Source: an uncultured Bdellovibrionales bacterium (GTDB lineage: Bacteria; Patescibacteriota; Minisyncoccia; Moranbacterales; UBA1568). Taken from it: a stretch of 64,000 bases of DNA. The stretch is from the NCBI GenBank assembly GCA_964624415.1, contig CAZUWR010000001.1:3855-67854 (forward strand). The letters are read 5' to 3'. Shown in pieces: positions 3,193 through 61,476 of the stretch. The notes below the pieces were generated by a model that was given only the letters and a program-made list of their open reading frames with translations, was not told the origin of the DNA and did no database searches. The position numbers were made by a program, and so were the translations under genes. Positions within the stretch are counted from its first letter, which is position 1. Each line of letters starts with the position of its first letter.

Positions 3193-4458
3193 ATGTCAAA
3201 GGTACAGACGATTGTAGGACGAGAGATCCTTGATTCACGAGGGAACCCGACCGTGGAAGTGGCAGTAACACTGGAAAGCGGCGTGTCCGCGGTGGCGATG
3301 GTGCCCTCCGGAGCCTCGACCGGCGAGTGGGAGGCAGTGGAGCTGCGTGATGGTGATGCCAAACGCTATGGCGGCAAGGGTGTTTTGAACGCCGTGAAGA
3401 ATGTGAATACGGAATTGGCGCAAGCGGTTATCGGTATGGACGCTTCCGAACAACGAGCGATCGATGAGGCGATGATTGCCGTGGATGGAACGGAAAATAA
3501 AGGACGATTGGGTGCTAACGCCATCTTGGGTGTTTCTTTGGCCGTGGCTCGCGCACATGCCCTCGATTCCAAACAAACCCTGTATACCCATATCAATACG
3601 CTGCTGGCAAATGAGAGCAAAGTTGCTTTGCCGGTGCCGATGTTTAATGTCCTCAATGGCGGTATGCACAGTGACTCCGGTCTTGCGATTCAGGAATTTA
3701 AGATTGTGCCGATCGGTATCAAGCCGTACGCTGAGCAGTTGCGTGCCGGGAGCGAAATCTTTCATGCGCTGAAAAAAATCCTCGAAAAGGACGGTTTTGT
3801 AACCAGTGTGGGCGATGAAGGCGGATTCGCGCCAAGACTCCAGAGCAATGCGCAGGCCTTCGAAGTCATCATCCAGGCTATCAAAGCGGCCGGTTATGAG
3901 CCGGGCACACAGGTGGCGCTCGGCATCGATGCAGCAGCCAGCTCTTTTTACAACGATACCGAAGATCAGTATGTGCTCAAGCCCGAAGGTGTGAATATGT
4001 CTCGTGAGAGTCTGATCGCAATGTATCGTGAGTGGATGAGTAAGTACTTCATCATTTCCATCGAGGATGGTCTGCACGAGAATGACTGGGAAGGCTGGGC
4101 TACGATGAAGGAGAAACTGGAGAAGGAAAATGCCGACATAATGCTTATCGGTGATGATCTACTCGTGACCAATCCGAAACGTTTGGCCCGTGCTATCGAG
4201 GAGAAGTCTTGCAATGCGGTGCTTATCAAGCTCAATCAGATCGGTACGCTGAGCGAAACACTTGAGTGTATCCGTATGGCCCAAGCGAACAACTATCGCG
4301 TGGTGGTGTCGCATCGCTCCGGTGAGACAACGGATGATTTTATCGCCGATCTGGCCGCAGGTACCGGCGCCGGCTTCATCAAAACCGGATCGCTGTCCCG
4401 AGGAGAGCGCCTGGCGAAGTACAATCGCTTGCTCGCGATCGAAACGGAAATCGCGTAA
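3193..4458 (+). CDS. eno: enolase
   Basis: 421-aa ORF with the SHRSGETED-type motif (SHRSGETTD) and conserved enolase N-terminus; AGGAG SD upstream. Confidence 0.95.
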   Translation: MSKVQTIVGREILDSRGNPTVEVAVTLESGVSAVAMVPSGASTGEWEAVELRDGDAKRYGGKGVLNAVKNVNTELAQAVIGMDASEQRAIDEAMIAVDGTENKGRLGANAILGVSLAVARAHALDSKQTLYTHINTLLANESKVALPVPMFNVLNGGMHSDSGLAIQEFKIVPIGIKPYAEQLRAGSEIFHALKKILEKDGFVTSVGDEGGFAPRLQSNAQAFEVIIQAIKAAGYEPGTQVALGIDAAASSFYNDTEDQYVLKPEGVNMSRESLIAMYREWMSKYFIISIEDGLHENDWEGWATMKEKLEKENADIMLIGDDLLVTNPKRLARAIEEKSCNAVLIKLNQIGTLSETLECIRMAQANNYRVVVSHRSGETTDDFIADLAAGTGAGFIKTGSLSRGERLAKYNRLLAIETEIA

Positions 4459-8350: not shown

Positions 8351-9331
8351 ATGAAACTTTTAGTCACGGGCGGAGCGGGATTTATCGGGTCCAATTTCAT
8401 CCACTATATCCTCAAGAAATATCCCGAGTACAGCGTGGTCAATCTGGATGCTTTGACGTATGCAGGCAATCCGGAAAACGTGCGGGAGTGGGAAGGTGAC
8501 CCGCGGTATACTTTCGTTAAGGGGGATATTTGCGATGCAGAGCTTGTGGAAAAATTGGTGCAAGGTGTCGATGCTATCGTACACTTTGCTGCCGAGTCGC
8601 ATGTCGATCGCTCTATCTTGGATGCGCATTCATTCGTGCAGACCAATGTGATTGGAACGCAAACGCTTTTGGATGCCGCTCTGCACAATGACAAGAAGCG
8701 TTTTCATCATGTCTCGACCGACGAGGTCTTCGGTGCGCTCAAACCAGAAGATGAGCCGTTTTCAGAGAAGACACCCTATGACCCGCGCAGCCCGTACAGC
8801 GCTTCGAAGGCCGGATCCGATCATCTGGTGCGGGCGTATTTCCACACCCACGGACTACCGGTGACGATTTCCAATTGTTCCAATAATTATGGCCCGTATC
8901 ATTTTCCGGAAAAGCTGATACCACTGGCAATTACTAATCTAATGGAAGGGAAGCAGGTGCCGGTCTATGGCGACGGGATGCAGGTGCGCGATTGGCTTTT
9001 TGTCGAGGATCACTGCCGTGCCATCGATTTGATCGTGCATCAGGGGGCGCTCGGTGAGACCTACTGTGTGGGTGGGGCATCGGAGCGCGCCAATATCGAT
9101 ATCGTGAAGCAGCTGCTCAAGCTTATGGGCAAGGATGAAACGAGTATTGAGTATGTGACCGACCGGCTCGGGCATGATCGGCGCTATGCTATCGATTTTT
9201 CAAAAATCAAAAAAGAACTCGGATGGGAGCCGACCGTGACCCTCGAAGATGGACTCAAGCAGACCGTTGAGTGGTTTACAGAGAACGAAGGCTGGTGGCA
9301 GCGCATCAAGTCGGGGGAGTATAGAAAATAA
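8351..9331 (+). CDS. rfbB: dTDP-glucose 4,6-dehydratase
   Basis: MKLLVTGGAGFIGSNF Rossmann N-terminus; YxxxK catalytic dyad of the SDR family; 326 aa. Confidence 0.9.
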   Translation: MKLLVTGGAGFIGSNFIHYILKKYPEYSVVNLDALTYAGNPENVREWEGDPRYTFVKGDICDAELVEKLVQGVDAIVHFAAESHVDRSILDAHSFVQTNVIGTQTLLDAALHNDKKRFHHVSTDEVFGALKPEDEPFSEKTPYDPRSPYSASKAGSDHLVRAYFHTHGLPVTISNCSNNYGPYHFPEKLIPLAITNLMEGKQVPVYGDGMQVRDWLFVEDHCRAIDLIVHQGALGETYCVGGASERANIDIVKQLLKLMGKDETSIEYVTDRLGHDRRYAIDFSKIKKELGWEPTVTLEDGLKQTVEWFTENEGWWQRIKSGEYRK

Positions 9332-56304: not shown

Positions 56305-57774
56305 ATGAAATACACACCTGTCATCGGCATGGAAGTGCATGTCGAATTGAAGACCAAATCCAAGATGTTTTGCTCGTGCAAGAACGGCTTGGGACTGGAG
56401 AAAACCCCCAATGTCAATATCTGCCCCGTGTGCACCGCGCAGCCGGGGACACTGCCCGTGCCCAATCGCCAGGCGATAGAATTCGTGCAGAAGGCCGGAC
56501 TGGCACTCAATTGTGATATACGCCTCTTGTCGAAATTCGATCGCAAGAACTATTTTTACCCGGATATTCCCAAGGGCTATCAGATTTCCCAGTACGATGA
56601 GCCGCTGTGCGAGAAAGGCGTCATCAGTATCGACGGGAAGGACATCCGCATCACGCGTATCCATATGGAGGAGGATACCGGGAAATCCAATCATCCCAAT
56701 GGCGCAGACTATACACTGGTAGATTTCAATCGTGCCGGTGTGCCGCTGATGGAATTGGTGACCGAGGCAGACTTGTCGAATGGCAAGGAAACTCGCGCTT
56801 TCTGTCAGCGCCTGCAGCAGACGCTGCGCTATATCGGTATCTCGGATGCGGATATGGAGAAAGGGCAGATGCGTTGCGAGGTGAACATATCCCTCCACAA
56901 GGAGGGTGCCGATCGCTTGAGCGGTACCAAAGCGGAGATCAAAAATATCAATTCATTCCGCGCTGTCGAACGGGCTATCGATTTCGAAATCAAGCGCCAG
57001 TCGGAGCTTTTGGATGCGGGAGAAAAAGTGGTGCAAGAAACTCGCGGGTGGGATGAAAACAAGAGCGCGACCGTCTCGCAGCGCAAGAAGGAATCCGCGC
57101 ATGACTATCGCTACTTCCCGGAGCCGGATATCCCGCCGCTTCACTTCACGCAAGACTATGTGGAGGCATTGCGCGCTTCTTTGCCGGAGCTTCCGCAGGC
57201 CAAAGAAGTGCGTTTCCAGGAGGAATACAAGCTCAATGTCGATGACGCGATTATGCTCGCTTCCGATAAGGATTTGGCGGCATATTTTGAAAATGTCATT
57301 ACCGAACTTTCAGCCAAGATCGATGCCAAAGAAGTGAGCGCGACCCTGGAGAAACTTGTCAAGCTCACCGCTAACTATATCATTTCAGAACTGCGCAAGC
57401 ACTTTATCAAGACCGGCGAAACCATCCGCGATATCCGTATCACTCCCGAGAACTTCGCCGAGCTCATCGGTTTCATCGGGGATGGCAAGATCAACTCCAG
57501 TGCCGCCCAGACGGTACTTGAAATTATGTATCAGGGTGAGGATAGCGATCCATCGCATATCATCGAGGAAAAAAACCTGGGACAGATGAGTGATGCCTCT
57601 GCGCTCGAAACCGTCGTAGATGCTGTCTTGGCAGCCAATCAGCAGTCGGTGGAGGACTACAAGAATGGCAAACAAGCGGCCTTCCAGTTCCTTATCGGGC
57701 AGGTGATGAAGGAAACCAAAGGCAAGGCCAATCCGCAGGTGGCGGGCGAATCGCTCAAGAAGCGTCTTCAGTAG
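56305..57774 (+). CDS. gatB: Asp-tRNA(Asn)/Glu-tRNA(Gln) amidotransferase subunit B
   Basis: MKYTPVIGMEVHVEL N-terminus; 489 aa with a conserved GatB/YqeY C-terminal domain. Confidence 0.9.
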   Translation: MKYTPVIGMEVHVELKTKSKMFCSCKNGLGLEKTPNVNICPVCTAQPGTLPVPNRQAIEFVQKAGLALNCDIRLLSKFDRKNYFYPDIPKGYQISQYDEPLCEKGVISIDGKDIRITRIHMEEDTGKSNHPNGADYTLVDFNRAGVPLMELVTEADLSNGKETRAFCQRLQQTLRYIGISDADMEKGQMRCEVNISLHKEGADRLSGTKAEIKNINSFRAVERAIDFEIKRQSELLDAGEKVVQETRGWDENKSATVSQRKKESAHDYRYFPEPDIPPLHFTQDYVEALRASLPELPQAKEVRFQEEYKLNVDDAIMLASDKDLAAYFENVITELSAKIDAKEVSATLEKLVKLTANYIISELRKHFIKTGETIRDIRITPENFAELIGFIGDGKINSSAAQTVLEIMYQGEDSDPSHIIEEKNLGQMSDASALETVVDAVLAANQQSVEDYKNGKQAAFQFLIGQVMKETKGKANPQVAGESLKKRLQ

Positions 57775-57795
57775 ATGTGCGATACAAAGAATACA

Positions 57796-57828
57796 AAAAC
57801 CGCTTTCCGGCTCAGGAGAGCGGTTTTT
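57796..57828 (+). terminator. intrinsic terminator after gatB
   Basis: AAAAACCGCT / AGCGGTTTTT stem around a 14-nt loop. Confidence 0.55.
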
Positions 57829-57851
57829 AAGTACACTTTTGTCACTATCTC

Positions 57852-57880
57852 TTGACAAAATGAGGAGAGGGTGCTATAGT
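57852..57880 (+). promoter_or_regulatory. consensus sigma-70 promoter of the small-ORF island
   Basis: TTGACA, 17 nt, TATAGT. Confidence 0.5.
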
Positions 57881-57939
57881 GAAGGAGCAGTACCCAAAAG
57901 ACAATAATTACATAAAAATCAAAAAACAGGAGAAGTGCT

Positions 57940-58038
57940 ATGAGCACGTTTTTAGAATTAGTATTTCTAGGGGTTATTTTTTTCTTTGTATTGAAGGCGC
58001 ATAAAAATAATACGGCGCCCTTAAATACTGATGAGTAG
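57940..58038 (+). CDS. small hydrophobic peptide (32 aa, one TM helix, charged C-terminus)
   Basis: AGGAG SD 6 nt upstream; MSTFLELVFLGVIFFFVLKAHKNNTAPLNTDE; below the ORF-track cutoff. Confidence 0.35.
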   Translation: MSTFLELVFLGVIFFFVLKAHKNNTAPLNTDE

Positions 58039-58047
58039 GAGAACGAA

Positions 58048-58224
58048 ATGACTGTAAAACAAATACTGGCTAAATTTTCAGCAAAAGAAGAGGGTGATAA
58101 TGGGAATTTTGGACTGGAAGATGCTCAAGAGCACAATGTCCAAGAGCATCAAAAAACTCTTCCCGCATTGCTCTTGCGGGATGCTGAAAATTTCAAAGAT
58201 TACCAGTGGCAACACTTTTTTTAA
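58048..58224 (+). CDS. small acidic protein (58 aa)
   Basis: AGGAGA SD; translationally close-coupled to the 32-aa ORF. Confidence 0.35.
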   Translation: MTVKQILAKFSAKEEGDNGNFGLEDAQEHNVQEHQKTLPALLLRDAENFKDYQWQHFF

Positions 58225-58309
58225 ATAGAGCTAGGCGCCGCGTACTGAACTTCAGTCCGGCGCCAAAAATTTTATTTGACAACTTTCTTAGGAGGAGTAT
58301 ACTTGAAAC

Positions 58310-58382
58310 TAATGAAAAGAAAGCTCAACATTTTAGCAGTCTATACGAAGTGATATCATCACCCCTGTGGGTGATTTTTTTT
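58310..58382 (+). ncRNA. candidate small RNA (about 70 nt) defined by a promoter and an intrinsic terminator
   Basis: TTGACA (58276), 17 nt, ATACTT, then about 50 nt, then hairpin ATCACCC-CTGT-GGGTGAT followed by a T9 run; contains only a 13-codon ORF. Confidence 0.3.
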
Positions 58383-58447
58383 GAGCCGATTTTCGCACTT
58401 GTTGTTTAACAACAGAATAATCAAATATTGAGTAAGGAGAATGTGTT

Positions 58448-58741
58448 ATGAATGATTCTAAAATGAGACAACCATCATTAAACTTTCTGGTAGAATCTCC
58501 AGCTTGTGACCTGATGCCCGATGGTGGTTGGTGTGATGTGCCTTTTCTACGGAGTTTACTCCCTTCAGAGCAAAGATGTAATTGCGCAAAGTACGGAAAG
58601 TGCATTATACGGGAATTGCCAAAAATCGATAATCATTCTATGGTTACGATACTTTTTTATAATCAAGCACAGGGAACCCCTGTTCCTGTTGATAAAATTC
58701 GATCAGCAATCAGTTTATATTGTGAAGCTCACAGTGTTTGA
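58448..58741 (+). CDS. small Cys-rich protein (97 aa)
   Basis: AAGGAG SD; 8 Cys including CNCAKYGKC; no family recognised. Confidence 0.4.
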   Translation: MNDSKMRQPSLNFLVESPACDLMPDGGWCDVPFLRSLLPSEQRCNCAKYGKCIIRELPKIDNHSMVTILFYNQAQGTPVPVDKIRSAISLYCEAHSV

Positions 58742-58752
58742 ATGGCACAATA

Positions 58753-58786
58753 AAAGGTGATGATATAAAATTCATCACCTTTTAGC
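58753..58786. terminator. bidirectional terminator between the Cys-rich ORF and miaA
   Basis: AAAGGTGATGA-TATAAAAT-TCATCACCTTT hairpin with flanking T runs. Confidence 0.55.
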
Positions 58787-58789
58787 TTT

Positions 58790-59779
58790 TTAGAAGAAGA
58801 TCTCTGTTTCCGAGGCAGCCTCTATCCAGTGGATATCAGCGCCCTGTTTTTCCCATCGGCGCAGCCAAGTGCGCTGTCTTTTGGCATAGTGGACGATGTC
58901 GAAGAAAAGTTTTTCTTTCATTGTCGGTTCGTCGATGTTTCCCTGCAAGAAGCGAGCTATCCATCGGTATTCAAGACCGAAGGCCTCCAGTTTTTCCCAT
59001 GCCGCGCCATGCTCGTGGAGGCGCCGCACTTCTTCGATCATGCCCTGATCGAAGCGTTCGTCCAGGCGTTTTCGTATATTCGCATCCAGGATGTCTTTTG
59101 GAGGATTGAACGCGATAATGAAATAGTTGCTTTGATTGATATATTGAGGTTTGGGATGTGTCATTCCGATCGTAGCGGAGGAATCCGAGATCCTTCGACT
59201 ACGCTCAGGATGACATATCATGGGGTTGCTCTGCAGTGAAGGGACTTTTCCAAGTGATTGTACGATTTCCAGAGCCCGGATAAGCCGGATGGGATTGTTT
59301 CTATCGATAGTTAGGGCTCTTTCCGGATCGATGGCTTGCAGTTTTGCAAAGAGTTCTTGGATAGAAAGGTGCGAAAGTTCTTTGCGCAGTATGAGATCGG
59401 GCAAGACCTCCGGGAAGGATTGGTTATCGATGAGCGCCTGCGCCCAAAAAAGCGTACCTCCGCAGAGGATGGGGAGTTTGCCGCGGCTTCGGATGTCTCG
59501 GATGATTGCTTGGGCATCACATTTGAAGTCCGTGACATTGTACTCCTCGTGCGGCTCGCGAATATCGAGGAGGTGATGCTGAGCGAGCGACTGCTCTTCG
59601 GTAGTCACCTTACCCGTCCCGATATCCATTCCGCAGTACACCTGTCGGCTGTCGGCTGAAATAATCTCGCCATCGTATTTGAGGGCCAGTGAAATTGCCA
59701 AAGAAGACTTGCCCGAGGCTGTCGGCCCGACGATGGCAAGGGTTTGTGATCTGTCGAATTTTCTTGACGTATGATTCAT
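58790..59779 (-). CDS. miaA: tRNA dimethylallyltransferase
   Basis: P-loop GPTASGKSS and DSRQVY motif; 329 aa; carries an approximately 20-aa insertion (CHPERSRRISDSSATIGMTHP) encoded by the dispersed repeat. Confidence 0.8.
   Translation of the reverse strand: MNHTSRKFDRSQTLAIVGPTASGKSSLAISLALKYDGEIISADSRQVYCGMDIGTGKVTTEEQSLAQHHLLDIREPHEEYNVTDFKCDAQAIIRDIRSRGKLPILCGGTLFWAQALIDNQSFPEVLPDLILRKELSHLSIQELFAKLQAIDPERALTIDRNNPIRLIRALEIVQSLGKVPSLQSNPMICHPERSRRISDSSATIGMTHPKPQYINQSNYFIIAFNPPKDILDANIRKRLDERFDQGMIEEVRRLHEHGAAWEKLEAFGLEYRWIARFLQGNIDEPTMKEKLFFDIVHYAKRQRTWLRRWEKQGADIHWIEAASETEIFF
59189..59215 (+). repeat. dispersed 27-nt repeat, copy 2 (inside the miaA coding sequence, in frame)
   Basis: identical to 41708..41734; on the miaA strand it reads CHPERSRRI. 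Confidence 0.6.
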
Positions 59780-59806
59780 AGTATGTTAGTATAGGCTATT
59801 CAGAAT

Positions 59807-59873
59807 GGAAATGCAAGCGGTTTTCTGAACGTAGAAAAAGTACTTGCTGAACGGGCTGAAGTTTGGCTCTTTA
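59807..59873 (+). promoter_or_regulatory. conserved structured 5' leader, E1
   Basis: GGAAATGCAAGCGG...; nested stems GCAAG/CTTGC and TTTTCT/AGAAAA; paralogues at 60731 and 61042. Confidence 0.45.
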
Positions 59874-59896
59874 TCAATTGAATACGAGGTAATGAT

Positions 59897-60280
59897 ATGC
59901 ATACTGTAGCGCAAAAATTGGCATTGCTAACAGCCATCGTAACGGTGATAGGAGGAGTTACAGCAAGTCTGTATTATAGGCAAGTATGGATACTACCTTT
60001 GACTGTGTTTGTCATGAGGGGAACAGAGATGCTTCTTCATATTGAAACAGAGATGACATTGATATATTCTTCGGAGGAACTCGGAAAAAGGGTTGCTCGA
60101 TGGATATTTATCTTGACTGTTCTTGCGGCGGTAATCGGTATTTTTGATACCACTACAGCAGGTATAGTCTGTTTTGTAATGATATTTCTCGTCTCATGTA
60201 AACTCGCTCAAACTCTGGCAATCTACATCAAAAAATATGATCAAATTTACGATTTCCACAAGGTTTTTAGTGAGGAATAA
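59897..60280 (+). CDS. hypothetical membrane protein (4 TM)
   Basis: 127-aa ORF with a GAGGT SD. Confidence 0.45.
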   Translation: MHTVAQKLALLTAIVTVIGGVTASLYYRQVWILPLTVFVMRGTEMLLHIETEMTLIYSSEELGKRVARWIFILTVLAAVIGIFDTTTAGIVCFVMIFLVSCKLAQTLAIYIKKYDQIYDFHKVFSEE

Positions 60281-60288
60281 GGAGTAGT

Positions 60289-60591
60289 GTGATGAAGAGA
60301 AAACAAAAAACGAAAACAAAAAAATGCATATCTATCTCCGAGGAGTATTTTCAGGAACTCCTAAACTTTCTTCAAAAATCGTATAAGAACTTACTCGAAT
60401 ACGCGTTTTATAAAGAGGCTGAGATCTTTTTGGGCGCTATAAAAGCCATGAAGAAAGGGTGTTTCGGAAAGGCAAAAAAACTTTTTCAAAGGTTAACTGC
60501 CGATGTCCAAAGAACTCTTAGCGAAGGGTATCAGGAGGATGATTACATGCGATCAGTACGTAATCTTAAGCCCGCGATAGATGAATTGTGA
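60289..60591 (+). CDS. hypothetical basic protein (100 aa)
   Basis: ORF 8 nt after the previous stop. Confidence 0.4.
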   Translation: MMKRKQKTKTKKCISISEEYFQELLNFLQKSYKNLLEYAFYKEAEIFLGAIKAMKKGCFGKAKKLFQRLTADVQRTLSEGYQEDDYMRSVRNLKPAIDEL

Positions 60592-60687
60592 TTTGAAAGA
60601 TGAAGATGTAAAGCCGAAACGTCAATGACGGAGTAGGCTTTTATACTACCCGAAAATGCTTCTTTGAGCCGTATTTGTCAGATATGA

Positions 60688-60716
60688 TTGACAAATGTTG
60701 CGGCGTATGCTATACT
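60688..60716 (+). promoter_or_regulatory. consensus sigma-70 promoter upstream of leader E2
   Basis: TTGACA, 17 nt, TATACT with an extended TGc. Confidence 0.55.
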
Positions 60717-60730
60717 GGGTTTTTCACGTC

Positions 60731-60794
60731 AGCAATGCGGGCAGTTTTCCCAAGACGGAAAAGCGCTTGCGAACTAACCTGAAAACAGGTTTTT
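60731..60794 (+). promoter_or_regulatory. conserved structured 5' leader, E2, with a terminator-like hairpin (candidate attenuator/riboswitch)
   Basis: stems GCGGGC/GCTTGC (with G-U pairs) and TTTTCC/GGAAAA, then CCTG-AAAA-CAGG followed by a T6 run, then a GGAGGA SD. Confidence 0.45.
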
Positions 60795-60819
60795 TGAAAC
60801 TCTTATGGAGGATGCAGCT

Positions 60820-60972
60820 ATGACGCTGTCAACAATACTGATATGGGTAGTTTTCCTTTTTATTGTCTATTTATTTTATCTGGCGATGAAGGGAACGAAA
60901 CCAGTAGGGTGTTCTGTGTGGGTACAAATGAATAAATATGCCCCGCACAAAACCGATACCACGTTCGATTAA
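60820..60972 (+). CDS. small membrane protein (50 aa, one TM helix)
   Basis: MTLSTILIWVVFLFIVYLFYLAMKG...; GGAGGA SD; below the ORF-track cutoff. Confidence 0.35.
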   Translation: MTLSTILIWVVFLFIVYLFYLAMKGTKPVGCSVWVQMNKYAPHKTDTTFD

Positions 60973-61041
60973 AATCAGTAGTCGACGACGGAGGTCTCAT
61001 ATTCTTACATCAAGAAGAGGCCTCCGAAAATTATTCACACC

Positions 61042-61107
61042 GGAAATGCGAGCGGTTTTCCGAAACGGAACAAATGCTTGCCGACCGGGCTGAAGTTTGG
61101 CTCTTTA
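61042..61107 (+). promoter_or_regulatory. conserved structured 5' leader, E3
   Basis: GGAAATGCGAGCGG...; stems GCGAG/CTTGC and TTTTCC/GGAACA; about 85 percent identical to E1. Confidence 0.45.
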
Positions 61108-61123
61108 AAAATTTTACGAGGAT

Positions 61124-61411
61124 ATGATTATGAATGTTGTATTTATGATAGAGTGTATAACACTTTGCGTAATGGGTCATGGACACGGATATGCTATGAA
61201 TTGGCTGGTAATTGAGGATATGACAGAAAATGATTTTAAAGACGAAAATATTCAAGAATGGATTCTATTGAATATTTTCAAAAAAGGAACAATACCAATT
61301 GGCCAGGATATTGTGACCGTGAAAAAATCGATGTTTTCTGATGGGCATGAAGTTGACGGATTCAGTGAATCCAAGAGCTTTAAGGTGAAGTTTTCACTAG
61401 AAAGAGTGTAG
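61124..61411 (+). CDS. hypothetical protein (95 aa)
   Basis: ORF with a GAGGA SD downstream of leader E3. Confidence 0.4.
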   Translation: MIMNVVFMIECITLCVMGHGHGYAMNWLVIEDMTENDFKDENIQEWILLNIFKKGTIPIGQDIVTVKKSMFSDGHEVDGFSESKSFKVKFSLERV

Positions 61412-61476
61412 TCAGCGATAAAGTCGCAAGAGCCTGCTTAAACATAAAAGCAGGCTCTTAAAAATGTGCAAAAAAC

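What the first reader, a model, noticed from the sequence alone, without database searches (positions are those of the whole stretch)
58276..58382. Promoter-to-terminator unit of about 70 nt: candidate small RNA
A near-consensus promoter (TTGACA at 58276, 17-nt spacer, ATACTT/TATACT) is followed after about 50 nt by a clean intrinsic terminator (ATCACCC-CTGT-GGGTGAT plus T9, 58356-58382). The interval holds only a 13-codon ORF (MKRKLNILAVYTK) with no correctly spaced SD. A strong promoter and a strong terminator bracketing about 70 nt is the canonical signature of a bacterial sRNA, or of a very short leader peptide.

The unit sits inside an island of small ORFs and just upstream of a Cys-rich protein gene, so it could be a trans-acting regulator of neighbouring genes, or the antitoxin of a type I-like pair together with the 32-aa hydrophobic peptide at 57940.
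Basis: seen in the sequence. Interest (0 to 1): 0.5.

Follow-up and report, generated by a model that had tools for sequence, protein, structure and literature searches.

The report
Translated mini-leader with built-in terminator
The promoter-to-terminator unit is real and strongly conserved in a group of uncultured ultra-small bacteria, but it looks less like a free-standing small RNA than like a tiny translated leader whose terminator gates expression of the small cysteine-rich gene behind it.

Summary

The organism is a Candidatus Moraniibacteriota-like CPR bacterium. In a syntenic relative, silent sites in flanking genes are only 33-57% identical. The 160-nt unit is about 90% identical. 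Changes cluster in the promoter spacer and the middle of the ORF.

I found 23 such units, almost all between gatB and a convergent miaA. They share four features:
- A strong promoter.
- An ATG 6-10 nt after the -10 box, so the mRNA is leaderless or nearly so.
- A 13-28-codon, Lys/Asn-rich ORF whose stop lies from 11 nt before to 14 nt inside the terminator hairpin. This is far more often than shuffles predict.
- A small gene with its own ribosome-binding site 27-65 nt after the U-tract, which is too close for a promoter of its own.

These downstream genes are mostly Cys-rich and fall into at least 13 unrelated clusters.

Best reading (about 0.5): a ribosome-dependent transcription attenuator, in which translating the mini-ORF blocks the terminator. 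Terminated copies would be the predicted ~70-nt RNA.

Rivals are a trans-acting or dual-function sRNA and a functional micropeptide. The type I antitoxin idea is not supported. There is no Rfam match. The sensed signal is unknown.

The parts
58234..58264 (+). GC-rich hairpin (GGCGCCG...CGGCGCC) closing the upstream two-gene small-ORF operon. It probably terminates or insulates transcription coming from the 57852 promoter.
   Evidence: Sequence. Present with 3 substitutions in L001. At the same place L120 has a different hairpin sequence (GCGCCTTATGTT...AACATAAGGCGC). In L177 I read a further hairpin-like palindrome by eye only. The U-run is displaced by an A5 tract, so it is not a canonical terminator.
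58265..58275 (+). A5T4AT tract directly upstream of the -35 box, resembling an UP element
   Evidence: AAAAATTTTAT is conserved in window, L001, L120 and L177. The UP-element function is inferred from general knowledge, not tested.
58276..58303 (+). Sigma-70-type promoter: TTGACA, 16-nt spacer, TATACT (11 of 12 consensus matches)
   Evidence: The hexamers and spacer length are invariant in window, L001, L120 and L177, while the spacer sequence varies. Equivalent promoters are found in 21 units.
58312..58353 (+). Leaderless or near-leaderless mini-ORF MKRKLNILAVYTK. The ATG lies 8 nt after the -10 box and the stop TGA is at 58351-53, with 4 nt between it and the hairpin.
   Evidence: ATG 6-10 nt after the -10 box in all 21 promoter-bearing units. 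The ORF ends between -11 and +14 of the hairpin start in 20 of 21 units, against shuffle nulls of 0.03-0.44.
58348..58354 (+). AAGTGAT, the family motif AARGYG(A). It is complementary to the first 5 nt of the terminator's 5' arm and contains the mini-ORF stop codon.
   Evidence: Present in 22 of 23 units and in five different reading frames. It forms 3-5 consecutive pairs with the 5' arm, against 1.6 in slid controls. The helix is weak and its function is unresolved.
58358..58382 (+). Intrinsic terminator: 7-bp stem ATCACCC/GGGTGAT, loop CTGT, then a U-tract
   Evidence: hairpin present in both MFE and centroid. Identical in L001. The stem shows A-U, G.U and G-C variants across the family.
58383..58394 (+). 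Conserved post-terminator block GAGCCGATTTTC. Together with the last two U of the tract it is complementary to the RNA 5' end (AUGAAAA...GCUCAA).
   Evidence: Conserved in window, L001, L120 and L177. Predicted helix of -11 to -13 kcal/mol against -5 for non-cognate pairs, rank 0 of 17, in this subgroup only. It can only form in read-through transcripts.
58395..58447 (+). Remaining 5' UTR of the downstream gene, with SD AAGGAG at 58434-58439. No conserved promoter.
   Evidence: Poorly conserved except for AGGAGAATGTGTTATGA. Only a 9-of-12 promoter-like site at 58392, which is not conserved in L001.
58448..58741 (+). The gene the unit appears to gate: a 97-aa protein with 6 Cys and no known domain
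   Evidence: only one homologue, at 56% identity, among 5.8 billion proteins. The equivalent position in relatives holds small, mostly Cys-rich proteins of at least 13 BLAST clusters, none with a Pfam match.
58751..58784 (.). 13-bp hairpin between the Cys-rich gene and convergent miaA, a likely shared terminator
   Evidence: Conserved in L001.

Best explanation
The unit is the 5' leader of the downstream small Cys-rich gene. It is a ribosome-dependent transcription attenuator built around a leaderless mini-ORF.

**Proposed steps**
1. A strong, UP-assisted sigma-70 promoter starts transcription at or 1 nt before the AUG at 58312.
2. RNA polymerase reaches a strong intrinsic terminator only about 46 nt later.
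3. If no ribosome is on the RNA, the hairpin forms and a ~70-nt RNA is released.
4. If a 70S ribosome has started on the 5'-terminal AUG and reached the stop codon, its footprint covers the 5' arm of the hairpin. The stop ends 4 nt before the hairpin here, and lies inside the hairpin in some relatives. The terminator then fails and polymerase reads on into the 97-aa gene, which has its own SD but no promoter.
5. Output of the gated gene therefore depends on a race between translation initiation and elongation on the mini-ORF and polymerase speed.

**Shown by sequence and comparison:** the promoter, the ATG position, the conserved ORF-to-terminator geometry, and the lack of a downstream promoter.

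**Inferred:** the transcription start site, that the ORF is translated, that a ribosome suppresses this terminator, and that read-through is regulated. The sensed signal is unknown.
For: 1. **Selection on the unit.** It is about 90% identical to L001 over 163 nt, against 33-57% identity at four-fold sites of the flanking genes. Substitutions fall in the promoter spacer, ORF codons 8-10 and the 3 nt between AAGTGAT and the hairpin.
2. **ATG at the predicted start site.** It lies 6-10 nt after the -10 box in all 21 promoter-bearing units. This includes lineages not selected on that ATG: L003 and L008, found through gatB synteny, and the ATGTC subgroup, whose first ATG lay outside the search pattern.
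3. **ORF geometry.** A 5'-proximal ORF ends between -11 and +14 of the hairpin start in 20 of 21 units. The product of shuffle nulls over about 9 lineages is roughly 2e-7. A TAG in the hairpin loop is in frame with the mini-ORF in 6 of the 6 mini-ORF units that have one (my reading).
4. **Peptide is variable.** Peptide length and sequence differ between units, and the one conserved nucleotide motif sits in five different frames. This is typical of regulatory uORFs.
5. **Dependent downstream gene.** In 22 of 22 units with room, an SD plus start codon follows 27-65 nt after the U-tract.
6. **Mini-ORF is replaceable.** In L158 and L140 the mini-ORF is replaced by the end of an ordinary gene whose stop lies 8-10 nt before the same terminator. 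What matters seems to be a translated stop next to the hairpin.
7. **Experimental precedent.** In E. coli a terminator is almost fully repressed when only several bp downstream of a translated gene. It regains full efficiency (~0.9) beyond 30 bp and works well within the first 100 bp of a coding region (PMC4824070). Leaderless short ORFs act as attenuators in mycobacteria (bioRxiv 10.1101/834739).
Against: - There are no transcript, start-site or translation data for any member.
- Eight nt between the -10 box and the ATG is at the long end for an exactly leaderless start.
- No convincing antiterminator exists. The AAGYGA/5'-arm helix is only 3-5 bp.
- The mini-ORF has no codon run that matches the downstream genes. 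There is no Cys tract, only Lys/Asn richness that could simply reflect an A-rich 5' end.
- In one subgroup (L089, L097, L122, L124, L186) the first ATG opens only a 2-8-codon ORF, and a second ATG without an SD carries the ORF that reaches the terminator.
- The first 23 nt of the ORF are invariant at the nucleotide level in four relatives, which suggests an RNA-level constraint as well.
Confidence: 0.5

Rival explanations
1. The ~70-nt terminated transcript is itself the functional product. It would be a trans-acting small RNA, possibly dual-function and also encoding the mini-peptide, that pairs with mRNAs elsewhere in the genome. Read-through into the Cys-rich gene would be incidental.
For: - The strong promoter and strong terminator bracket about 70 nt.
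- The 5' 23 nt are invariant at the nucleotide level in four relatives with saturated silent sites, as expected for a seed region.
- That 5' part is predicted to be largely unstructured.
- Attenuator-derived RNAs can act in trans, as rnTrpL does (PMC6614838).
Against: - The 5' sequence is not conserved between subfamilies, whereas the ORF geometry is.
- No outstanding complementary site exists in the 64-kb window or in neighbouring genes, although most of the genome was not available.
- A dependent gene always follows.
- There is no Rfam match.
Confidence: 0.15
2. The mini-ORF is a genuine gene for a cationic micropeptide of 13-28 aa that is made at high level. The hairpin is simply its terminator. 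It is leaky enough to give low-level co-expression of the Cys-rich partner gene, in the way a structural gene is followed by accessory genes in some peptide operons.
For: - The ORF and its ATG are conserved features.
- Within subgroups the peptides resemble each other and keep the same length, for example MKNFELKKEEFKISDLKNRP, MKKMEHKKIALQKSDLRNRP and MNNLKHKKTVLKKSDLGNRP, including Leu encoded by CTA versus TTG.
- All are basic with a hydrophobic centre.
Against: - Peptide length (13-28 aa) and sequence vary widely between subgroups.
- A 1-nt indel shifts the C-terminus in L120.
- Closely related pairs differ mostly by non-synonymous changes (L089/L097, L106/L164).
- In L158 and L140 the module exists without any mini-ORF.
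- The only family-wide motif is at the nucleotide level and is read in five frames.
Confidence: 0.2
3. There is no regulatory device. The terminator is the leftover terminator of gatB or the upstream small genes. The promoter merely drives the downstream gene, and the terminator in between is tolerated because it is inefficient in this organism.
For: - In L158 the same terminator sits directly at the end of gatB.
- Within the window alone, a promoter-terminator pair this close is not statistically unusual.
Against: - A promoter placed upstream of a 7-8-bp GC-rich stem plus U7-9 would be self-defeating, yet this order is kept in more than 20 units.
- The ATG position and the placement of the stop codon are conserved beyond chance.
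- The whole block is under strong purifying selection.
Confidence: 0.07
4. The unit encodes the RNA antitoxin of a type I toxin-antitoxin pair whose toxin is the 32-aa hydrophobic peptide at 57940.
For: A small hydrophobic peptide gene lies about 340 nt upstream on the same strand. It is conserved as a 36-aa single-helix peptide in L001.
Against: - The unit lies on the same strand as the peptide gene and does not overlap it, so it is not antisense.
- Duplex energies with 57900-58040 rank at the 18-36th percentile of all window segments.
- In L008, L089, L123, L124, L161 and others the unit follows gatB within about 120 nt, with no peptide gene between.
Confidence: 0.02

Closest known systems
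pyrBI (pyrL) leader of enteric bacteria, and the general effect of a ribosome at a stop codon on a nearby intrinsic terminator
   Same: A short leader ORF runs up to or into a strong intrinsic terminator that precedes the structural gene. A ribosome close behind the polymerase physically prevents hairpin formation. No stable antiterminator hairpin is needed. Experiments show near-complete terminator repression when the stop codon is only several bp away (PMC4824070, which also cites the pyrBI work).
   Different: The mini-ORF here is leaderless and 13-28 codons long, against an SD-led 44 codons in pyrL (from my own knowledge). The downstream genes are unrelated to pyrimidine synthesis. U-rich pause tracts are present in many family members but only as TTTT in this window. 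Their role was not tested.
Leaderless short-ORF attenuators of mycobacteria (the 'Cys ribulon', bioRxiv 10.1101/834739)
   Same: The mRNA starts with AUG. An unannotated short ORF is the first cistron and controls the genes behind it through ribosome position. The same design is used with different downstream genes.
   Different: The mycobacterial elements carry polycysteine tracts and act by unmasking a sequestered ribosome-binding site, which is translational control. Here there is no Cys tract, and the structure in question is an intrinsic terminator. The Cys richness lies in the downstream proteins, not in the leader.
Classical amino-acid operon leader peptides (trpL, hisL, pheL and others)
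   Same: Promoter, short ORF, terminator and structural gene in that order, with a terminated leader RNA of about 70-140 nt as by-product.
   Different: Those have alternative 1:2, 2:3 and 3:4 hairpins and runs of the regulatory codon. Neither was found here: only a 3-5-bp competitor helix and no pathway-matched codons.
Attenuator-derived and dual-function small RNAs (rnTrpL/peTrpL of Sinorhizobium, PMC6614838; SgrS/SgrT and RNAIII/hld from my own knowledge)
   Same: A short terminated transcript that also carries a tiny ORF. It could act both in cis and in trans.
   Different: No target or seed could be identified here. Trans action is purely hypothetical.

Membership tests
Trans-acting bacterial sRNA | Own promoter and Rho-independent terminator bracketing a short transcript | tested here: met
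   Conserved in relatives. Sequence-level evidence only.
Trans-acting bacterial sRNA | Non-coding, with no conserved reading frame | tested here: not met
   ATG at the predicted start in 21 of 21 units. The ORF reaches the terminator in 20 of 21, against nulls of 0.03-0.44.
Trans-acting bacterial sRNA | Conserved seed with complementary target sites | tested here: inconclusive
   No outstanding site in the 64-kb window. The 5' region is conserved only within the closest subgroup. The rest of the genome was not available.
Trans-acting bacterial sRNA | Stand-alone gene, not the 5' part of a downstream mRNA | tested here: not met
   An SD plus start codon follows 27-65 nt after the U-tract in 22 of 22 units, with no conserved promoter between.
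Ribosome-mediated transcription attenuator (leader peptide class) | Short translated ORF in the leader, upstream of an intrinsic terminator that precedes the structural gene | tested here: met
   The geometry is conserved. Translation itself is inferred, not shown.
Ribosome-mediated transcription attenuator (leader peptide class) | Alternative antiterminator structure competing with the terminator | tested here: inconclusive
   AAGYGA pairs with the 5' arm over 3-5 bp in 22 of 22 units that carry the motif, against 1.6 in controls. The helix is too short to be stable alone. Direct ribosome occlusion would make it unnecessary.
Ribosome-mediated transcription attenuator (leader peptide class) | Regulatory codons matching the controlled pathway | tested here: not met
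   The mini-ORFs are Lys/Asn/Arg-rich, with 0-3 Cys and no Cys tract in any. The downstream proteins have no known function.
Ribosome-mediated transcription attenuator (leader peptide class) | Read-through changes with translation of the leader ORF | not testable with these tools
   Needs reporter fusions or a coupled transcription-translation assay.
pyrBI-type attenuator | Leader ORF stop within ribosome reach of, or inside, the terminator hairpin | tested here: met
   The stop begins at -7 relative to the hairpin start in the window, and between -11 and +14 across the family.
pyrBI-type attenuator | UTP-sensitive pause sites and pyrimidine genes downstream | tested here: not met
   The downstream genes are small Cys-rich proteins. 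T-runs are present in many leaders, but pausing cannot be tested here.
Mycobacterial leaderless Cys-sORF attenuators | mRNA begins with the start codon | tested here: inconclusive
   The ATG lies 6-10 nt after the -10 hexamer. The exact start site is unknown, and a 1-2-nt leader is possible in the window.
Mycobacterial leaderless Cys-sORF attenuators | Polycysteine tract in the sORF, with an RBS-sequestering duplex released by a stalled ribosome | tested here: not met
   There is no Cys tract. The controlling structure here is a terminator.
Type I toxin-antitoxin | Antitoxin RNA antisense to, or extensively complementary with, the toxin mRNA | tested here: not met
   Same strand, no overlap, and duplex energies ordinary. 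The unit occurs without the peptide gene in relatives.
Any Rfam 15 family | Covariance-model match | tested here: not met
   Nothing at gathering score in the window except one tRNA. Nothing relevant at E<=10 in 57700-58900.

The most novel reading that the evidence does not exclude
A lineage-specific 'expression platform' of CPR bacteria sits at a fixed chromosomal hotspot between gatB and miaA. It consists of a strong promoter, a leaderless mini-ORF and a terminator, and it is kept while the small Cys-rich gene behind it is repeatedly exchanged (at least 13 unrelated clusters, differing even between genomes with 84-87% identical GatB). The platform would tie expression of fast-evolving, possibly host-interaction or defence proteins to the cell's translational state. 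Its abundant terminated product would double as a trans-acting RNA or peptide. This would be the first described ribosome-sensing attenuator class, and the first candidate regulatory RNA family, specific to Patescibacteria.
Probability: 0.2. Interest if true: 0.7.

Novelty: new variant of a known kind. Interest (0 to 1): 0.5.

Why it matters
Almost nothing is known about gene regulation in the Candidate Phyla Radiation, because these bacteria are uncultured and have very few recognisable regulators. A conserved leader that appears to use the ribosome itself as the sensor would be a cheap control device suited to such reduced genomes.

It would also add a terminator-based, non-amino-acid-specific case to the small set of leaderless uORF attenuators known so far.

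The unit marks a hotspot where small Cys-rich genes of unknown function turn over quickly. It offers a handle, in the form of one shared promoter and leader, for finding out when those genes are expressed.

The element is short and self-contained. It can be tested directly in a heterologous reporter.

Tried and rejected
- **Rfam.** The whole window at gathering score and the locus at E<=10 gave no relevant family.
- **Type I antitoxin or antisense idea.** No complementarity to the 32-aa peptide mRNA or other neighbours.
- **SD-led start.** An in-frame TTG at 58303 with AGGAG 5 nt upstream would give a 16-aa peptide from read-through transcripts. The TTG is TTA in L120 and L177, so it is not conserved.
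- **Stable antiterminator.** The AAGYGA/5'-arm pairing is real as a sequence pattern but only 3-5 bp. The apparent three-way Y/R/Y covariation rests on too few independent events.
- **Long-range helix between the RNA 5' end and the post-terminator motif.** It is strong and specific in the window subgroup only. It is not a family-wide feature: cognate -6.3 against non-cognate -5.1 kcal/mol.
- **Whole-transcript fold of the 75-nt RNA.** No better than shuffles (z = -0.57). Only the terminator is structured.
- **Other copies.** The covariance model R1 found no second copy in the window. Among the 80 gatB-nearest species genomes it hit only L003 and L008. There were none in IMG/VR viral contigs.
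- **Function of the gated gene.** No Pfam domain for the 97-aa protein or for ten cargo proteins from relatives. Only one homologue in 5.8 billion proteins. Structure prediction was not attempted because the alignment would have had two rows.
- **Metagenome pattern.** Family members were separated afterwards by promoter geometry, motif and gatB/miaA synteny.
Full report
**1. What is in the sequence**

The region reads as follows.
- A GC-rich hairpin at 58234-58264.
- An A5T4AT tract.
- TTGACA at 58276-81, a 16-nt spacer, and TATACT at 58298-303.
- Eight nucleotides, then ATG at 58312.
- A 13-codon ORF (MKRKLNILAVYTK) with stop TGA at 58351-53.
- Four nucleotides, then the hairpin ATCACCC-CTGT-GGGTGAT at 58358-75.
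- A T run that ends at 58382.

Sixty-five nucleotides further on, an SD (AAGGAG) and ATG at 58448 open a 97-aa protein with six cysteines. A shared hairpin and convergent miaA follow.

The 75-nt transcript is not more structured than shuffles (z = -0.57). Only the terminator folds. Rfam has nothing here.

Within this window alone, one promoter-terminator pair this close is roughly what chance would give. The case therefore rests on comparison with other genomes.

**2. Organism and setting**

The closest GatB proteins among 185,579 species genomes are 65-70% identical. Several of them carry the label Candidatus Moraniibacteriota, which belongs to the Parcubacteria within Patescibacteria/CPR.

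The unit lies in a 1-kb stretch of 36-42% GC, between core genes of 50-55% GC. The gene order is thyA, folA, gatB, two small ORFs with their own promoter at 57852, the unit, the Cys-rich gene, then miaA on the other strand.

**3. Selection on the unit**

The 97-aa protein has a single homologue in 5.8 billion proteins, at 56% identity. Its contig, L001, is syntenic.

| Comparison, window vs L001 | Identity |
|---|---|
| GatB, amino acids | 93% |
| MiaA, amino acids | 75% |
| Cys-rich protein, amino acids | 61% |
| Four-fold degenerate sites of flanking genes | 33-57% |
| Unit block 58230-58390, nucleotides | about 90% over 163 nt |

The differences within the block fall where a promoter-leader-terminator model predicts freedom:
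- 7 of 16 spacer positions
- codons 8-10 of the ORF
- two of the three bases between AAGTGAT and the hairpin

Two further close relatives (L177 with GatB 87%, L120 with 84%) keep TTGACA, the 16-nt spacer length, TATACT and the first 23 nt of the ORF exactly. Their spacer sequence varies. This pattern argues for purifying selection rather than recent transfer.

**4. A family of units**

Two of the seven nearest species genomes (L003, L008) carry an analogous unit just after gatB.

I then scanned metagenomes with the pattern ATGA-N30-60-RTCRCCC-N3-5-GGGYGAT-T7. Filtering by promoter geometry, by a short motif and by synteny left 23 units, plus the variants L137 and L140.

Where the contig is long enough:
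- gatB lies 26-1281 nt upstream on the same strand, often about 120 nt.
- miaA lies 300-720 nt downstream on the opposite strand. One locus, L097, has it 1295 nt away.

A covariance model of the 3' module found no second copy in the window. It hit only L003 and L008 among the 80 GatB-nearest species genomes. The motif is absent from IMG/VR. The family is therefore patchy and lineage-restricted, and it is not phage-borne.

Caveat: the scan pattern imposed an ATGA somewhere 30-60 nt upstream and the stem sequence. Those two features are partly ascertained in the metagenome-derived members.

**5. Features shared by the units**

(a) A sigma-70-type promoter with 9-12 of 12 consensus matches.

(b) An ATG 6-10 nt after the -10 hexamer in all 21 promoter-bearing units.
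- This position was not imposed by the search.
- It holds in lineages found independently of the pattern: the window itself, L001, L003 and L008.
- It also holds for the first ATG of the ATGTC subgroup, which lay outside the pattern range.
- By my estimate, about 9% of random A/T-rich sequences would have an ATG in such a 5-nt range.

(c) A 5'-proximal ORF of 13-28 codons whose stop begins between -11 and +14 of the hairpin start.
- This holds in 20 of 21 units. The one failure has its stop at -11, one nt outside the -10 cut-off the test used.
- Dinucleotide shuffles that keep the ATG and the hairpin give 0.03-0.44 per unit.
- The product over about nine independent lineages is roughly 2e-7.
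- Where the hairpin loop contains TAG, it is in frame with the mini-ORF in all six mini-ORF units that have one. This is my own reading of the sequences.

(d) Peptides that are basic and Lys/Asn-rich but poorly conserved in sequence and length.
- The one family-wide nucleotide motif, AARGYG(A), lies 3-7 nt before the hairpin.
- It is read in five different frames.

(e) An SD plus start codon 27-65 nt after the U-tract in 22 of 22 units with room.
- This leaves no space for a separate promoter in the shorter cases.
- The window has only a 9-of-12 promoter-like site there, and it is not conserved in L001.

(f) Downstream proteins that are small (53-154 aa), mostly Cys-rich (4-10 Cys), and fall into at least 13 BLAST clusters.
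- L120 and L177 carry a different one from the window.
- None has a Pfam match.

(g) Two loci without a mini-ORF.
- In L158 and L140 the same motif, terminator and post-terminator sequence follow the end of an ordinary gene, which is gatB itself in L158.
- Its stop lies 8-10 nt before the hairpin.

**6. Interpretation**

Four observations argue against a purely non-coding, stand-alone sRNA:
- the ATG at the predicted start site
- the ORF that always ends at the terminator
- the indifference to peptide sequence
- the dependent downstream gene

They fit a translated leader that gates read-through.

The simplest mechanism is direct occlusion. A ribosome at, or just before, the stop codon covers the 5' arm of the hairpin.

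This effect has been measured in E. coli (PMC4824070):
- Terminator tR2 is almost fully repressed when it lies only several bp from a translated gene.
- It reaches full efficiency (~0.9) beyond 30 bp.
- Terminators within the first 100 bp of a coding region work efficiently.

In this unit the hairpin starts only 46 nt after the ATG. Termination is therefore probably the default, and read-through requires fast initiation on the 5'-terminal AUG or slow or paused polymerase. The unit would act as a kinetic sensor of translational capacity, and perhaps of NTP or Lys/Asn-tRNA supply.

Leaderless short ORFs that control the genes behind them through ribosome position are known in mycobacteria. There they work through Cys codons and RBS unmasking (10.1101/834739).

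I put this reading at about 0.5. Its weakest links are that the start site, the translation and the regulation are all inferred, and that the sensed signal is unknown.

**7. What remains unexplained**

- **The AARGYG(A) motif.** It is complementary to the first 3-5 nt of the terminator's 5' arm (4.2 pairs against 1.6 in slid controls). It also resembles the 3' arm. The helix is too short to be a stand-alone antiterminator. It may fine-tune hairpin folding or be a pause or recognition signal.
- **The post-terminator block in the window subgroup.** GAGCCRATTTTC is conserved. With the last two U of the tract it pairs with the RNA 5' end (AUGAAAA...GCUCAA; -11 to -13 kcal/mol against about -5 for non-cognate pairs). 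This helix can exist only in read-through transcripts and would bury the mini-ORF start. Both strands are invariant, so there is no covariation test. It probably explains why the first 23 nt are frozen at the nucleotide level.
- **More distant members.** A pyrimidine-rich motif (G/C)TCTTTAAC follows the U-tract instead. It is not specifically complementary to the cognate 5' end.

**8. Rival readings**

- **Trans-acting or dual-function sRNA (0.15).** It remains possible because the terminated product should be abundant and its 5' end is frozen in close relatives. I found no target in the window, and the 5' sequence is not conserved across the family.
- **Functional cationic micropeptide with a leaky terminator (0.2).** It shares the translation evidence and has some support from equal-length, similar peptides within subgroups. 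A frame-shifting indel, mostly non-synonymous differences between close pairs, and the ORF-less L158 and L140 variants count against it.
- **No regulatory meaning (0.07).** This conflicts with the conserved order, ATG and stop placement.
- **Type I antitoxin (0.02).** This is contradicted by strand, lack of complementarity and occurrence without the peptide gene.

**9. Novelty and score**

The kind, a leader-peptide or ribosome-dependent transcription attenuator, is long known. Four things are new:
- the combination of a leaderless mini-ORF with direct terminator occlusion and no matched regulatory codons
- its occurrence as a conserved, syntenic family in CPR bacteria
- its association with rapidly exchanged small Cys-rich genes
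- its absence from Rfam

I rate it a new variant of a known kind, with interest 0.5.

Noticed in passing
window 59792-59899, 60718-60824, 61026-61134; L001 11294-11399: Three copies of a different ~100-nt leader lie in the miaA-dnaE island. Each ends in a terminator-like hairpin plus a U/CUCUUUA stretch and is followed by the SD and ATG of a small ORF (127-aa membrane protein, 55 aa, 95 aa). Copy 2 has its own TTGACA-17-TATACT promoter at 60688-60716. A fourth copy sits at the syntenic place in L001 (nhmmer E=5e-25). RNAalifold predicts a stem enclosing a hairpin, with 3 compensatory pairs. There is no Rfam match. This is a candidate second cis-regulatory RNA family in the same genome.
   Followed up: partly
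window 59155-59219 (inside miaA, - strand gene 58790-59779): miaA carries an in-frame 24-aa insertion relative to its L001 orthologue (ICHPERSRRISDSSATIGMTHP...). It is formed by an imperfect palindrome with 31-nt arms that are 74% complementary and 3 nt apart. It looks like a small palindromic repeat element inserted into a coding region without breaking the frame.
   Followed up: partly
window 57800-58790 and 59800-61450: Two islands of small ORFs flank miaA. They have 36-42% GC, against 50-55% in the surrounding core genes. Their gene content differs even between close relatives, which suggests hotspots for gene turnover.
   Followed up: partly
window 58234-58264; L120 and L177 at the equivalent place: The hairpin just upstream of the unit's promoter is kept as a structure. 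L120 has a different hairpin sequence at the same place (GCGCCTTATGTT...AACATAAGGCGC), and L177 has a palindrome I read by eye only. It is always followed by an A-tract and then TTTTATTTGACA. It probably ends the upstream small-ORF operon, although its U-run is displaced by 4-5 nt.
   Followed up: partly
window 57852-58224: A two-gene operon has its own TTGACA-17-TATAGT promoter. It encodes a 32-aa single-helix hydrophobic peptide (57940-58038) and a 58-aa acidic protein (58048-58224). Both are conserved in L001 as 36-aa and 67-aa versions, with no known domains.
   Followed up: partly
L100 (- strand, hairpin near 8750) and L136 (hairpin near 3295): A similar promoter, ATG and terminator arrangement with the same stem sequence precedes a gene whose product I judged by eye to look like a class II aminoacyl-tRNA synthetase (…GFxEVFPPKI…). 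The arrangement lacks the AARGYG motif, and the gene was not run through any tool. It may be an unrelated leader that the loose search pattern picked up.
   Followed up: no
Downstream proteins of window, L001, L196 and L084: Several of the otherwise unrelated cargo proteins share a short C-D-[IV]-P-x-[FY] motif: WCDVPFL, KCDVPFL, ECDIPDF and WCDIPEYF. Some 'unrelated' clusters may therefore be very divergent versions of one fast-evolving Cys-rich family.
   Followed up: no
window 58290-58305: AGGAGGAG lies inside the promoter spacer, 5 nt before an in-frame TTG at 58303. It could start a 16-aa version of the peptide on transcripts reading through from upstream. The TTG is present in L001 but is TTA in L120 and L177, so this is probably fortuitous.
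   Followed up: yes
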